Part shown: positions 21,001-27,000 of the stretch, one piece after another
Numbering within the stretch: position 1 is the stretch's first letter
Layout: every line of letters begins with the position of its first letter
NCBI RefSeq assembly: GCF_055900595.2
Contig: NZ_CM148325.1
Direction: 5' to 3' (one strand)
DNA length: 64,000 nucleotides
Made by a program: the position numbers

Positions 21001-24000
21001 CAATGGCGTTGCGTAAAGCAACTACAGATTGCTCATACAGCGCGTCGAGTTTATCCAGTGCCTGAGCTGGGGTCAGACCGGAGCCCTTATTATTCATGTG
21101 TGTCTCCTGTTCCATACAATTACCGCACATCCGATAGTATGTCACAGGAATGTGAAACAAAAGTATAAGGCGAAGATCGGATGATCTTCGCCAGGCTATC
21201 ACGAGCGTTGATTGTCTTTCATCAATAAAGCGGTCATTGCAGAAATCAGGCATCCAGCCAGCAAATAAATGGCGACGCTATGCCAGTTCCCGGCAAAGTA
21301 AGTGATGAGTGCAGCGGCAATAAAAGGTGTAAATCCACCGCCAACCACACTGGCAACCTGATAACCGACTCCAGCACCACTGTAGCGATAACTGGCACCA
21401 AACATTTCGGTAAACATCGGTTGTTGCACACACACCACCATGTCATGCGCAATGTTTGCCAGCATTATGGAGAAGAAAACTATCCAGAAAATAGATTGTG
21501 CTTCAAGCGCCATAAAGAAAGGAAATGCGCTCAACGTTCCGATCAACGCGCCTGTGATATAAACCCTGCGCCGACCAAAACGATCGGCAAGCCAGGCAAA
21601 ACAGGGAATTGTCAGGCAGCTTAATCCACCTACCAGCAAACCAATATTAAGGAAAAGTTCGCGCGGTAACCCCATATTCTGGGTTGAATAATTAAGTGCA
21701 AAGGCAGTAACAATGTACATCGTCAGCAACTCGCACAGTCGTAGTGCAATAATCTTCAGGAAAGCACCGGGATGTCGTAACAGAGCTTCGATAACCGGGA
21801 TGCGTTTTTTCGCGGCCGCTTGATTATGTTGCTGTTGTTCAAATTCCGCGGACTCCTCCATGCCATTGCGCACCCACAATGCTCCCAGTACCAGTACGAT
21901 GCTAAACAGGAAAGGAATGCGCCAGCCCCAGCTTAAAAACTGTTCGTCAGTCGTCATCATACTGATCAATGAAACCAGTCCGGTTGAAAGCAGTAAACCT
22001 ACTCCGTAGCCAACTTGTACACCGCTACTGTAAAAGGCTTTTTTATTTTTCGGCGCACTTTCAACGGAAAGCAACGCTGCGCCTCCCCATTCGCCGCCGA
22101 CGGCAAATCCCTGAATGGCACGCAGTGTCACCAGCAAAATAGGTGCCCACCACCCAATGGTCGAGAATGAAGGAAGAATACCAATCAAGGCTGTCGCGAT
22201 GCCCATCATCCAGACGGTCAGCATTAACATGCGCTTACGTCCCAGCCGGTCACCAAAGTGACCGAAAATGACACCGCCGAGCGGTCGGAAAAGGAAGCCG
22301 ACACCAAAGGTGGCAAATGCGGCGAGCGTTCCCATCGCCGGGCTTACCTGCGGGAAAAACTCGCGATTAAACACCAGTGCGGCGGTAATGCCATAGAGTA
22401 AAAAATCATACCAGTCGACGACGGCACCAGCGAAACTGCCTAACGCAGCTCGTCGGGCGCGACTTAACGAAAGCGTCCCTTCATCGGGACGAGTGGAGAT
22501 GAGCGTGGAGTCCATAATGATCCTGTTTGTACTGTCTTTTTATAATTAGTATGGAAAAGGTAACTCACATTGCCGTCGATCTATAAACGAACCTTATGAG
22601 ACTACCTCGACAGAGCGAATCTGCAAATGATTTTATGGCTGATTAACGGCAACATGAAAAATTCGATGGAAGATGAAAGCGCAGGAGTTGCTGGTGTTGT
22701 TTAAGGATTAAGCAGAGGGCCCACAGGTTCGAGATATGAAACATAAAAGTCCGCATATGCACAAAATTGCACCCTGATGATTCTGATAGACTGCATTGCA
22801 TTATAACCAGTAGGGAGGCGAGGTTAGTTATGTTTTTAGTATCATTGTTGAGACGTATTGCATTTAGTTACTACGATTATAAAGCTTATAATTTTAATAT
22901 TGAAAAAACAGACTTTGTTGTCATACATATTCCCGATCAGATTGGCGATGCTATGGCCATCTTTCCTGTTATTCGGGCGCTTGAATTGCATAAAATTAAG
23001 CATCTATTAATTGTTACGTCGACAATTAATTTAGAAGTCTTTAATGCGCTCAAACTTGGGTGATGCTGCCAACTTACTGATTTAGTGTATGATGGTGTTT
23101 TTGAGGTGCTCCAGTGGCTTCTGTTTCTATCAGCTGTCCCTCCTGTTCAGCTACTGACGGGGTGGTGCGTAACGGCAAAAGCACCGCCGGACATCAGCGC
23201 TATCTCTGCTCTCACTGCCGTAAAACATGGCAACTGCAGTTCACTTACACCGCTTCTCAACCCGGTACGCACCAGAAAATCATTGATATGGCCATGAATG
23301 GCGTTGGATGCCGGGCAACTGCCCGCATTATGGGCGTTGGCCTCAACACGATTTTACGTCACTTAAAAAACTCAGGCCGCAGTCGGTAACCTCGCGCATA
23401 CAGCCGGGCAGTGACGTCATCGTCTGTGCGGAAATGGACGAACAGTGGGGCTATGTCGGGGCTAAATCGCGCCAGCGCTGGCTGTTTTACGCGTATGACA
23501 GGCTCCGGAAGACGGTTGTTGCGCACGTATTCGGTGAACGCACTATGGCGACGCTGGGGCGTCTTATGAGCCTGCTGTCACCCTTTGACGTGGTGATATG
23601 GATGACGGATGGCTGGCCGCTGTATGAATCCCGCCTGAAGGGAAAGCTGCACGTAATCAGCAAGCGATATACGCAGCGAATTGAGCGGCATAACCTGAAT
23701 CTGAGGCAGCACCTGGCACGGCTGGGACGGAAGTCGCTGTCGTTCTCAAAATCGGTGGAGCTGCATGACAAAGTCATCGGGCATTATCTGAACATAAAAC
23801 ACTATCAATAAGTTGGAGTCATTACCGTCTACCGTTTATCCTTATCACCCTCGATTAAACGTTCAGCAGCAATTATAAAAGATGCTTATATGGCAATAAC
23901 TCCTGACACCTCAATATTACATATGGCAAGCGCCTATAATACCCCTGTTGTTGCAATTTATGCTGATTACAAAACGCGATGGCCCGCAATGGCCGATGTT

Positions 24001-27000
24001 TCGGAGTCAGTCGCCGTTGGGCAAAAAATTGACAATATAAGTCTGGATGAATTCGCAAAGGCATTAAAAAGTGTTTTGGCGAGAATTTGAGGCAGTACTT
24101 ATGCATAGTAATGCCGATCTGTTATGAACGGTGGTGCCATCAATACTCTGAGGCTGGTCAATCATCACAGAAAACCAGCCTTTGGATCAAAGCAATACTC
24201 ACCGAAAATGATCATAGTCACACCGAACGCGATTCAGGAGGAACTGTTTGGTAAATAGCACCACCGGATCTTGGGGGCGCTGTGATTATTACAGTATTGC
24301 TATCACCGTCATTTTTGAATGTCACTTTACCAGTAGCATCAACGCCTACCCAGGAGGCCGAGCTTGAAAACGAATAATCAGCCGCCGTTTTTCCTGGTGC
24401 AAAGTTGTCATTATTCAACTGATAATACGCCCCGGTAAATCCCTGCGAAGGGAATGAAGCTGTCGGTAGGTTTGCACCATTCACTGACACTGTACCGGTC
24501 ATTGGTCTGGTTTCCGCGCTAATGAATTCTATCGTGGTACTCAGGCCCGCCTGATGAACACCATTCAATACGGGGATCAGCGTTGCGATACCCTCTCCGT
24601 CTCCTGTAACAGTAGCTTTGTAATCACCGTTGATATTTTGACTGTAATCAATTGCGCTAATTTTCATATAGGGCACGTTTGTACCTGATTGCACAAATTC
24701 CATCCCTTCAGAAACTTTGATCGGATTGCCTGATATATCGTGCAGAACAAGATGTAGCTCAGCACTATCGGTAAAGTCCCCTTTCAGTGATGACTGGTTG
24801 TTCTTAAGGATGGACTGCGAGGCGTCTGCTGGGACTGCCACTAGCGATATATCTACTGTTTGCATTCCACCTGCGCTTGTGACTGTGCTTACAGTGACGC
24901 TCCCCGTTATCGCTCCTTTCACGCTTGTTGTCGCGATTCCGTTTTGATCGGTCACTGCTGTTAATGACGTTAATGTGGTGGAGCCGCTTTTTAAGGCGAA
25001 GTACACAGTGAGACCTTCGATCAGGTTACCACTGCCATCCTCAACCGTTGCCTTTAAGGTACTTAAATCACTGTTGGTGGCGGCGATAGTCGACGGATCA
25101 GCGATAAAGCTAGCAACATGTGCGGTGCTTGGGTTGCCAGTAACCTTCACGGTTGTCTGTGTCTGTATTGTGACGCCGTTATGGAACGATGCAGTCACCG
25201 TATATGTACCGACTTTATTGCTGGTCAGAACGACTGGAGCCTGACCTGAAGAGTTGGTTCTCACTTTTCCGCCACTTAACGTCGCACCTTCTAGCGTTAC
25301 GCTAAAGTTGATGACCTGACCCTCCACTGGAGTGCCATTTGCAGAGGTTAGCGTTGCCGTCAGAGTAGCGCCTTTAGGAGCATTGACACCGATAAGCGGA
25401 CTGGACGTGAGTGTCAGTTTTTCATCAATAGCCTCCAGTTGTTTCTCAAGTGAAGCTCCATTCGCTAGGGATGCTTTTACAGTATACGAGCCGTTTCTTT
25501 CAGGCGTCATGGTGACCTCGGCTACTCCCTGCGTATTAGTAGAGACCGTATTCTGGCTGATGATCATTTGCGAGGATGGCGCTGCACTGAATGTCGCGGG
25601 TTGATGCGTCACCGGGTTGCCAAACTGGTCGTTAACGTGAGCTTTAACTGCTATGTCTTGTGCGACCATGACCTGACCTTCAGGTATCTCCTGACTGGTA
25701 ATCGTCGCAGAATTAACATCTACCTTGGCATTCAGTAATCGCGAGATGACTTCAGTAGGTTTATCTGCCAGAGAGGCTGAAACTGTTTTTAGTCCGACCT
25801 CGGTGCTTGTCACAAGAATTTCAGCGAAAACCTGATCATCCGTTTCAACGCTGGTGCTGCTTAGCGTGACGGAGGTTCCACGGAAATTAACTTTTATACC
25901 TTCTACTGGGTTGCCGTTTCCATCAGTCACTGTTGCCTGTAGCCTGGTCATTCCAATGTTATTGGCGATGAAATTGTCCTCGGTAACGTTAAGATTAACC
26001 TGCGCAGTGAGCGTATCCGCAGTAAAGTTCACCACCAACTGCTCACTCTTACCGCCAACCATCGATGCTGTCACGGTATGAGCGCCTGCTTTTGTACCTT
26101 TCAGCGTGACTTTCGCTTTGCCATCGGCATCAGTAACCGCTTTGTCGCCATCGCTCAGCGTGAAGTTCGCCTTCACATCTTCCGGTAGAGTAAATGTTAC
26201 CTCAGTGTTGGCTATCGCATTGCCCTCTGTATCAGCGACGGTGCTGTTAGTGTCGTGAGATCGTTATTGTCGGCAATCACCGGATCCTTCGAGGCTGCCA
26301 GCGTGATTTCAGCATTCGTGACGTTCGGCACATAGTTCACTGTTTGTTGCATCGAATCGCCATTTTCGAGGGTTGCCGTCACGGGAGTTCTTCAGGCTGA
26401 AATCTTCATCCACGCCCAGCGTGATTCTTGCGGTACCGAAGCGGCTTAACCAGTCTGTCATTACCCCTGAAGCCTGAGAAGAGGCCCATCCACGTGCTAT
26501 GTTTGCCGCTTGCTCGCTGTTCATATCTTCGGCGAGCAGAGATCCAATTAGCTGTGAAGTACTGGCTATCTGTTGCTCAAGGTTGCCACTGCTGTTACCC
26601 GGCGGCGGGGTTAAATTTTTTTCACTAACTTGTGCCTGGACATCCAGTTCATCACCCGGGCGGACATTACGAACAAACGTACGAAACTGGTTGAGTTTGC
26701 GTAACAGGGGGGTATCTATAATTTGTTGCACAGGACAAATATATCTGGCTTCTGTACAGAGTCTTAAATTTTGACCATAAATAAAACCGTCCCTGTCAAG
26801 CATGCATAGTTTATCAAGTAGGTCTCCCACAAACTGCCTGAATTTTATTTTCCATTAAAAGTTTGTATCTTCTTAAGTATCACAGGAGACTGGAAATAGA
26901 CCGATAGTAGGATGTTGCCACTCAAGGCATGACGATAAATATCGCTAGGAGTAATTTTTTGTTTTATGGCTTTGGTAGTGATCTCAACTGCTTCCGTTAT

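What the first reader, a model, noticed from the sequence alone, without database searches (positions are those of the whole stretch)
22767..24093. yeeL split by IS1 with no flanking target duplication
An IS1 (insA/insB on the + strand) separates a 98-aa N-terminal and a 66-aa C-terminal yeeL fragment. The 9 bp flanking the two IS1 ends (tcaaacttg and gtctaccgt) differ, which argues against simple insertion and for an IS1-associated deletion of the central part of yeeL. Together the fragments are much shorter than a full GT9-family enzyme.
Basis: seen in the sequence. Interest (0 to 1): 0.3.

Follow-up and report, generated by a model that had tools for sequence, protein, structure and literature searches.

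The report
IS1-adjacent deletion inside pseudogene yeeL
A common jumping gene (IS1) first landed in the dispensable E. coli sugar-transferase gene yeeL and later removed the 569 bases next to it, a textbook and biologically ordinary kind of genome scar.

Summary
A canonical 768-bp IS1 lies at 23059-23826, and its 9-bp flanks differ (TCAAACTTG on the left, GTCTACCGT on the right). No duplication of any length can be found.

The interpretation also holds, and the missing piece can be sized exactly. Intact yeeL is 1053 bp (350 aa, GT9 family). The window keeps nt 1-229 and 790-1053, so 560 bp of the gene are gone.

A near-identical strain, E. coli TUM1886, appears to preserve the precursor:
- It differs from the window by 20 SNPs and one gap over 59 kb.
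- It carries the same IS1 (768/768 identical) at the same right junction.
- Its yeeL is full length, with a perfect 9-bp duplication GTCTACCGT.

The window equals that allele minus 569 bp (560 bp plus the left duplicate copy), cut flush against the left end of IS1 (IRL).

The new left joint (yeeL 229|230) is a site that other IS1 variants have hit independently, in both orientations. That points to a transposase-made joint.

The most likely mechanism is one-step intramolecular IS1 transposition (an adjacent deletion). A second IS1 insertion followed by IS1-IS1 recombination gives the same product and cannot be excluded.

The phenomenon is already known and interest is low. yeeL is eroded by IS1 repeatedly across E. 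coli.

The parts
22830..23058 (+). yeeL N-terminal remnant (yeeL nt 1-229, 76 codons plus 1 nt). It reads into IS1 and stops after 'LG*'.
   Evidence: Coordinates mapped onto the intact 1053-bp allele of FDAARGOS_497 (L002 3311-4363). ORF list.
23050..23058 (.). Left joint sequence TCAAACTTG. It ends at yeeL nt 229, the new deletion endpoint and a recurrent IS1 target.
   Evidence: eco-241 has another IS1 isoform at the same nucleotide with the duplication CAAACTTG. Ten further contigs were checked: in nine an IS1 end abuts the same base, in either orientation, and in the tenth the exact 25-nt flank string was not found.
23059..23826 (+). Complete IS1 (IS1A-like, 768 bp). IRL 23059-23081, IRR 23804-23826, insA 23114-23389, insB frame 23308-23811, and the A6C frameshift motif TTAAAAAAC at 23363-23371.
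   Evidence: It is 768/768 identical to the IS1 in yeeL of TUM1886.
23827..23835 (.). GTCTACCGT, the surviving right-hand copy of the original 9-bp target duplication (yeeL nt 790-798).
   Evidence: In TUM1886 the same 9 bp flank both ends of the IS1.
23827..24090 (+). yeeL C-terminal remnant (yeeL nt 790-1053, 87 codons plus stop).
   Evidence: Pfam Glyco_transf_9 PF01075 scores 29.7 bits against a cutoff of 22.
21199..22515 (-). shiA (shikimate transporter), the left neighbour that fixes the locus as the K-12 yeeJ-yeeL-shiA position.
24218..26176 (-). yeeJ remnant (Ig-like repeat part of the inverse autotransporter adhesin), the right neighbour.

Best explanation
The structure is the product of two successive IS1 events in a non-essential GT9-family gene.

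Step 1 (shown by comparison). An IS1A-like element inserted into intact yeeL and duplicated nt 790-798 (GTCTACCGT). This state survives in E. coli TUM1886.

Step 2 (outcome shown, mechanism inferred). In the window's lineage the left end of that same IS1 (IRL) became joined to yeeL nt 229. This removed 569 bp: yeeL nt 230-789 plus the left copy of the duplication. IS1, its right junction and the right duplicate copy were left untouched.

The most likely mechanism is intramolecular replicative IS1 transposition into a nearby target in cis, the classical IS1 'adjacent deletion'. In that reaction the lost segment leaves as a non-replicating circle carrying a second IS1 copy.

No further phenotype is expected from the deletion itself, because yeeL was already broken by the insertion.
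For: 1. The deletion is sized exactly. The window lacks 560 bp relative to the intact allele of FDAARGOS_497, whose flanks differ from the window's at 3 of 6500 positions.

2. A precursor allele exists.
- TUM1886 has a 768/768-identical IS1 at the same right junction, with the perfect duplication GTCTACCGT, in a full-length yeeL.
- The segment between the window's left joint and IRL in TUM1886 is exactly the 560 bp plus 9 bp.
- The 3.5 kb to the left and 3.0 kb to the right are 100% identical to the window.

3. The two strains are very close. They are colinear over 59.3 kb with 20 SNPs and one gap, and this deletion is the only structural difference in that span.

4. The deletion starts flush with the last base of IRL. 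IS1 stays complete, and the deletion endpoints share no microhomology.

5. The left endpoint looks like a real IS1 target, not a random break. Other IS1 isoforms, in both orientations, abut exactly the same nucleotide. In eco-241 this comes with its own 8-bp duplication ending at nt 229.

6. The simple-insertion allele is the commoner one in public assemblies. Its 274-aa product appears in 67 collection blocks. The 77-aa product appears in 26 blocks, and those include unrelated alleles. This fits an ancestral insertion and a derived deletion.

7. Literature support.
- IS1 was seen to move only replicatively within the chromosome in a recent study, and it makes 8-9 bp duplications (PMC12428005).
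- Adjacent deletion and IS-IS recombination are named as frequent causes of missing duplications (PMC11708052).

8. The same kind of scar arose independently in yeeL of other strains: 23GD35035 (nt 283-743 lost), B20159 (nt 130-795 lost) and an NCTC strain (nt 230 to beside fyuA).
Against: - The final sequence is identical to what a two-step route would leave: a second IS1 inserting at the 229 site in direct orientation, followed by homologous IS1-IS1 recombination.
- Because nt 229 is a hot insertion site, that second insertion is not far-fetched.
- Short-read contigs with the window-type left junction and identical upstream sequence (L011, L013) end inside IS1. They could be either the deletion allele or such a two-IS1 intermediate.
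- No transposase dependence, excised circle or recA independence can be shown in silico.
- The exact left junction is absent from all 5426 complete RefSeq E. coli genomes. The full deletion allele, with both junctions linked, is therefore seen only in this window.
Confidence: 0.68

Rival explanations
1. Two-step route. A second IS1 copy inserted at the yeeL 229 hot spot in the same orientation as the resident copy at 790. RecA-dependent homologous recombination between the two direct copies then removed one IS1, the 560-bp segment and one copy of each duplication.
For: - This route yields exactly the observed sequence: left flank TCAAACTTG, one IS1, right flank GTCTACCGT.
- nt 229 is repeatedly hit by IS1 in unrelated strains.
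- IS-IS recombination is a documented cause of missing duplications (PMC11708052).
Against: - It needs two events where one suffices.
- No complete genome was seen carrying both the window's left junction and the TUM1886-type insertion: none of the 5426 has the window's left junction at 100%.
- TUM1886 has few IS1 copies, with 3-4 matching places in the record.
- The window's IS1 is identical throughout to the resident yeeL copy. A donor copy would therefore have to be sequence-identical.
Confidence: 0.24
2. Assembly artefact. The 569 bp next to the IS1 repeat were dropped when the source genome was assembled, and the strain really carries the TUM1886-type simple insertion.
For: - IS copies are classic sites of misassembly.
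- The complete deletion allele is seen in no other complete genome.
Against: - The left junction lies at a proven IS1 target nucleotide and flush with IRL, which a random collapse would not produce.
- The missing segment is not repetitive.
- Independent assemblies show the same yeeL-229|IRL junction with 0 mismatches in the upstream 2.5 kb. These are ENA ERZ25021408 (L011) and Logan DRR791120 (L013).
Confidence: 0.03
3. Independent origin. The window's IS1 is not descended from the TUM1886-type insertion. It arrived in a single insertion-with-deletion event, or the deletion arose by IS-independent illegitimate recombination that happens to end at IRL.
For: IS movements that occur together with deletions, and without duplications, have been proposed for other IS families (PMC11708052).
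Against: - The IS1 sequence, orientation and right junction are all identical to TUM1886, in a background differing by about 0.03%. Coincidence is very unlikely.
- The endpoints share no microhomology.
Confidence: 0.03

Closest known systems
IS1-promoted adjacent deletions (classical gal/Tn9 work by Reif and Saedler, cited from my own knowledge; general framework in PMC11708052)
   Same: The deletion starts exactly at one IS end. The IS is retained intact and the distal duplicate copy is retained. The proximal duplicate copy and neighbouring DNA are lost, and the new joint lies at a transposase target site.
   Different: Nothing is different in kind. This is a natural chromosomal instance of only 569 bp, inside a gene the IS had already broken, so no selectable phenotype is expected.
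yeeL::IS1 simple-insertion allele of E. coli TUM1886 (NZ_CP128970.1 / AP026454.1)
   Same: It has the same IS1 sequence (768/768), orientation and right junction, and the same surrounding 59 kb.
   Different: TUM1886 keeps yeeL nt 230-789 and both copies of GTCTACCGT. The window has lost 569 bp.
Deletions by homologous recombination between two IS copies (for example in the E. coli long-term evolution experiment; PMC11708052)
   Same: A single IS is left behind, flanked by non-matching sequences.
   Different: That route requires a second IS1 copy 560 bp away, and no trace of one was found.
K-12 yeeL pseudogene (b4497)
   Same: It is the same gene at the same locus between yeeJ and shiA, and it is also non-functional.
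   Different: K-12 yeeL is full length (1053 bp) and is inactivated by an in-frame stop at codon 236, not by IS1.

Membership tests
IS1 family insertion sequence | About 768 bp with roughly 23-bp imperfect terminal inverted repeats | tested here: met
   The element is 768 bp with canonical IRL and IRR, and 765/768 identical to K-12 IS1A.
IS1 family insertion sequence | insA and insB' frames with an A6C -1 frameshift motif, plus InsA zinc-ribbon, HTH and DDE_Tnp_IS1 domains | tested here: met
   Pfam PF03811, PF12759 and PF03400 all score far above their cutoffs. TTAAAAAAC lies at IS1 position 305.
IS1 family insertion sequence | 8-9 bp direct target duplication flanking the element | tested here: not met
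   No duplication of 2-14 nt is present. This is explained by the deletion: the same element in TUM1886 has a perfect 9-bp duplication.
IS-mediated adjacent deletion | The deletion begins exactly at one IS terminus and the IS is retained complete | tested here: met
   The 569 bp lost relative to TUM1886 end at the base before IRL position 1, and the IS1 is identical.
IS-mediated adjacent deletion | The distal junction and its duplicate copy are unchanged, and the proximal duplicate copy is lost | tested here: met
   GTCTACCGT is retained at 23827-23835, and the left copy is absent.
IS-mediated adjacent deletion | A precursor with a simple insertion at the same site exists in the lineage | tested here: met
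   TUM1886 differs by 20 SNPs and one gap over 59 kb. Its 274-aa fragment product occurs in 67 collection blocks.
IS-mediated adjacent deletion | The new joint lies at a site used by the transposase | tested here: met
   Independent IS1 isoforms and orientations join at the same nucleotide. eco-241 has its own 8-bp duplication ending at nt 229.
IS-mediated adjacent deletion | Single-step, transposase-dependent and recA-independent, with an excised IS-bearing circle | not testable with these tools
   This needs genetics or PCR. The sequence alone cannot separate it from the IS1-IS1 recombination route.
Glycosyltransferase family 9 (yeeL) | Match to Pfam Glyco_transf_9 above the gathering score | tested here: met
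   The intact allele scores 29.9 bits and the window's C-terminal fragment 29.7 bits, against a cutoff of 22. The N-terminal fragment alone has no hit.
Glycosyltransferase family 9 (yeeL) | Full-length coding sequence of about 350 aa | tested here: not met
   Only 76 and 87 codons remain, separated by IS1. The gene is a pseudogene in this window.
Glycosyltransferase family 9 (yeeL) | Position between shiA and yeeJ, as for K-12 b4497 | tested here: met

The most novel reading that the evidence does not exclude
yeeL is not just another IS1 victim. It holds a nucleotide-precise IS1 hot spot (nt 229|230) that at least three IS1 isoforms have hit in both orientations. The gene is also inactivated convergently across E. 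coli: by an in-frame stop in K-12, by IS1 insertions at three or more sites, and by at least four independent IS1-associated deletions. This could reflect selection for loss of a glycosyltransferase that sits next to, and perhaps works with, the adhesin gene yeeJ, and not only the AT-richness of the target.
Probability: 0.15. Interest if true: 0.35.

Novelty: already known. Interest (0 to 1): 0.1.

Why it matters
It matters little on its own. It is a clean natural example in which both the precursor (simple insertion with duplication) and the product (adjacent deletion without duplication) of an IS1 rearrangement are preserved in near-identical genomes. That makes it useful as a teaching case or as an annotation benchmark.

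In practice the two yeeL pieces should be annotated as fragments of a single pseudogene with an internal 560-bp loss. The missing duplication should not be read as an annotation error in the IS1 boundaries.

The wider pattern of recurrent IS1 erosion of AT-rich yeeL (38.8% GC against 52.7% for the window) is a modest data point on IS1 target choice and on the decay of dispensable genes.

Tried and rejected
- Redefining the IS1 ends to recover a duplication. Rejected: the ends are canonical and the flanks match at no length above 1 nt.

- Looking for a second IS1 in the window that could have recombined. None was found, allowing up to 3 mismatches in either terminal repeat.

- Looking for the same complete allele in 5426 complete E. 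coli genomes. The left junction is not present at 100% identity. The exact right junction occurs only in TUM1886; MZ1211 has a near-match (98.8%, 81-bp span) that was not inspected.

- Identifying the source strain through exact-protein look-ups.
  - The 98-aa TTG-start product is not on record.
  - The 77-aa product is found only on short contigs that end inside IS1, or on alleles that differ from the window's.

- Testing whether an IHF site explains the hot spot. There is no WATCAANNNNTTR match at either joint, and even one-mismatch matches lie elsewhere.

- Comparing contig lengths between deletion-type and insertion-type short-read assemblies, to link the left junction to the deletion. The far ends of the contigs vary too much for this to be decisive, so it was not used as evidence.

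- Literature. No paper in the library links yeeL with IS1, and none mentions TUM1886.
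Full report
**What is in the sequence**

Window 23059-23826 is a complete 768-bp IS1 on the + strand.
- It has the canonical terminal repeats GGTGATGCTGCCAACTTACTGAT and GGTAATGACTCCAACTTATTGAT.
- It carries insA (23114-23389), the insB frame (23308-23811) and the A6C frameshift motif.
- All three IS1 Pfam domains are present.
- It differs from K-12 IS1A at 3 positions.
- It is the only IS1 in the window.

No direct repeat longer than 1 nt exists between the flanks, and they share no 5-mer.

The flanking coding pieces belong to yeeL.
- The locus lies between shiA and a yeeJ remnant, the position of K-12 pseudogene yeeL b4497.
- The C-terminal piece and the intact allele both match Pfam Glyco_transf_9 above threshold.
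The real remnants are yeeL nt 1-229 (22830-23058) and nt 790-1053 (23827-24090).

**Sizing the loss**

I joined the two flanks without IS1 into a 933-nt query and searched 5426 complete E. coli genomes.
- 5342 genomes match, and 4821 of them match in one place.
- In the typical case the match falls into two pieces spanning 1493 bp, so the genomes hold 560 bp more than the window.
- The best match, FDAARGOS_497, is 100% identical over the query and encodes an uninterrupted 350-aa GT9 protein (WP_000480488.1).
- Direct mapping shows the window lacks exactly yeeL nt 230-789.

**The precursor allele**

I then searched with the whole structure including IS1. The best hit is strain TUM1886, 100% identical but in two pieces spanning 2270 bp against the 1701-bp query.
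- TUM1886 has an IS1 identical at all 768 positions, in the same orientation and with the same right junction.
- It is flanked on both sides by GTCTACCGT and sits inside a full-length yeeL.
- The DNA between the window's left joint and IRL in TUM1886 is precisely the missing 560 bp plus the left 9-bp duplicate.
- 3.5 kb to the left and 3.0 kb to the right are identical to the window.
- Over 59.3 kb the two strains differ by 20 substitutions and one gap, and by this deletion alone in structure.

The window allele is therefore the TUM1886 allele minus 569 bp abutting IRL.

The simple-insertion allele is also the commoner one in public assemblies. Its 274-aa fragment product is in 67 collection blocks.

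**Nature of the left endpoint**

The joint at yeeL 229|230 is not a random break.
- The 77-aa product created by any IS1 end abutting that base is on record in 26 collection blocks.
- At the DNA level the same nucleotide is followed by three kinds of IS1 end:
  - the window-type IRL (L010, L011, L013);
  - IRR, meaning an inverted IS1 (L009, L012, L015, L018);
  - the IRL of an IS1 isoform that differs from the window's at 52 of 768 positions (L014, L017, eco-241).
- In eco-241 the insertion has its own 8-bp duplication, CAAACTTG, ending at nt 229.

A transposase-made joint is thus the natural reading. The endpoints share no microhomology that would suggest slippage.

**Mechanism**

The shown facts are:
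- insertion with a duplication in a near-identical relative;
- loss of 569 bp flush with IRL;
- an intact IS1 and an intact distal junction;
- an endpoint at a proven IS1 target.

These are the defining features of an IS-mediated adjacent deletion. The one-step mechanism, intramolecular replicative transposition with the lost segment excised as an IS1-bearing circle, is inferred.

Literature support is indirect. IS1 was seen to move only replicatively within the chromosome in a recent study, and it makes 8-9 bp duplications (PMC12428005). Adjacent deletion and IS-IS recombination are named as frequent causes of missing duplications (PMC11708052).

The rival route is a second IS1 inserting at the 229 hot spot, followed by recombination between the two direct copies. 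It gives an identical product and cannot be excluded.
- It needs an extra event.
- No two-IS1 intermediate was seen: no complete genome has the window's left junction at 100%.
- TUM1886 has few IS1 copies.

I put the umbrella claim, an IS1-associated deletion derived from the simple insertion, at about 0.95. Within that, the one-step route is about 0.68 and the two-step route about 0.24. Assembly error and an independent origin are about 0.03 each.

**Context: yeeL is a recurrent IS1 victim**

yeeL is AT-rich, at 38.8% GC against 52.7% for the window.

The alleles found, in yeeL coordinates, are:

| Strain | Allele |
|---|---|
| TUM1886 | simple insertion, duplication 790-798 |
| DA33135 and many similar genomes | simple insertion, duplication 783-790 |
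| eco-241 | tandem IS1, duplication 222-229 |
| 23GD35035 | IS1 with nt 283-743 lost |
| B20159 | IS1 with nt 130-795 lost |
| NCTC strain (GCA_900449025.1) | inverted IS1 joining nt 229 to the DNA beside fyuA, about 4.4 kb lost |

In addition:
- At least 167 of 5426 complete genomes hold an IS1 in yeeL close enough to be joined in one match.
- K-12 yeeL is dead through an in-frame stop.

The window's structure is one ordinary member of this pattern.

**Comparison with what is known, and novelty**

IS1-promoted adjacent deletions have been known since the 1970s (my own knowledge). The general framework is restated in PMC11708052.
- Every defining feature testable in silico is met.
- The only IS1 feature not met, the flanking duplication, is explained by the deletion and is present in the precursor.
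- No paper in the searchable library links yeeL with IS1.

This particular allele is probably undescribed, but it is not new in kind.

Noticed in passing
window 23058|23059 (yeeL nt 229|230); loci L003, L009-L018: This is a nucleotide-precise recurrent IS1 joint. The same base is abutted by window-type IRL, by IRR (inverted IS1) and by a 93%-identical IS1 isoform, in unrelated backgrounds with 0-37 mismatches in the upstream 2.5 kb. No IHF consensus lies at the site.
   Followed up: partly
L003 3041-4584 (E. coli eco-241, NZ_CP053662.1): Two identical IS1 copies sit in tandem, separated by 8 bp (GAAAAAGT) unrelated to yeeL. The whole unit is flanked by the 8-bp duplication CAAACTTG. It looks like an IS1-spacer-IS1 unit that inserted as one piece.
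   Followed up: partly
L004 about 3046-3092 (E. coli O157:H7 TR01, NZ_CP033605.1): 47 bp of IS1 IRL replace 45 bp of yeeL, starting 4 bp to the right of the window's left joint. yeeL ends up 1055 bp long and frameshifted. This solo IS1-end remnant did not appear in other O157 genomes among the hits.
   Followed up: partly
L019, L020, L009: Three further independent IS1-with-deletion alleles of yeeL were found: nt 283-743 lost, nt 130-795 lost, and nt 230 through to beside fyuA (window-equivalent position 27664).
   Followed up: yes
window 27708-57993: The yersiniabactin high-pathogenicity island is present (fyuA, ybtE/T/U, irp1, irp2, ybtA/P/Q/X/S, int), next to tRNA-Asn at 58155-58230. irp2 is intact here but has an internal stop at codon 693 in TUM1886. 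The integrase frame has no internal stop in the window, but its first codon reads Ile at the expected start.
   Followed up: partly
window 24218-27700: yeeJ is only a remnant: a 652-aa ORF of Ig-like repeats plus a beta-domain piece, ending against the island near fyuA. Exactly this truncated arrangement is shared at 99.9% identity or more by many E. coli genomes.
   Followed up: partly
window 59329-64000: Directly after tRNA-Ser(cga) at 59222-59311 the window continues into core genes (cytochrome b561, zinT, and ferric-reductase-like and molybdopterin oxidoreductase genes). TUM1886 has a lambdoid prophage integrated at this point.
   Followed up: partly
window 1-10300: This is a degenerate island. 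In the TUM1886 annotation of the colinear region it holds ISL3, IS3 and IS4 transposase pseudogenes and truncated ggt-like and phosphotriesterase-like genes. It also has a YagK/YfjJ-family ORF (2894-3499). The cobUST genes follow.
   Followed up: no
window 13823-18130 and 58155-58230: There are four tRNA-Asn(gtt) genes in the window. Three are clustered around nac, cbl and yeeO, and the fourth lies at the island's integrase end.
   Followed up: no
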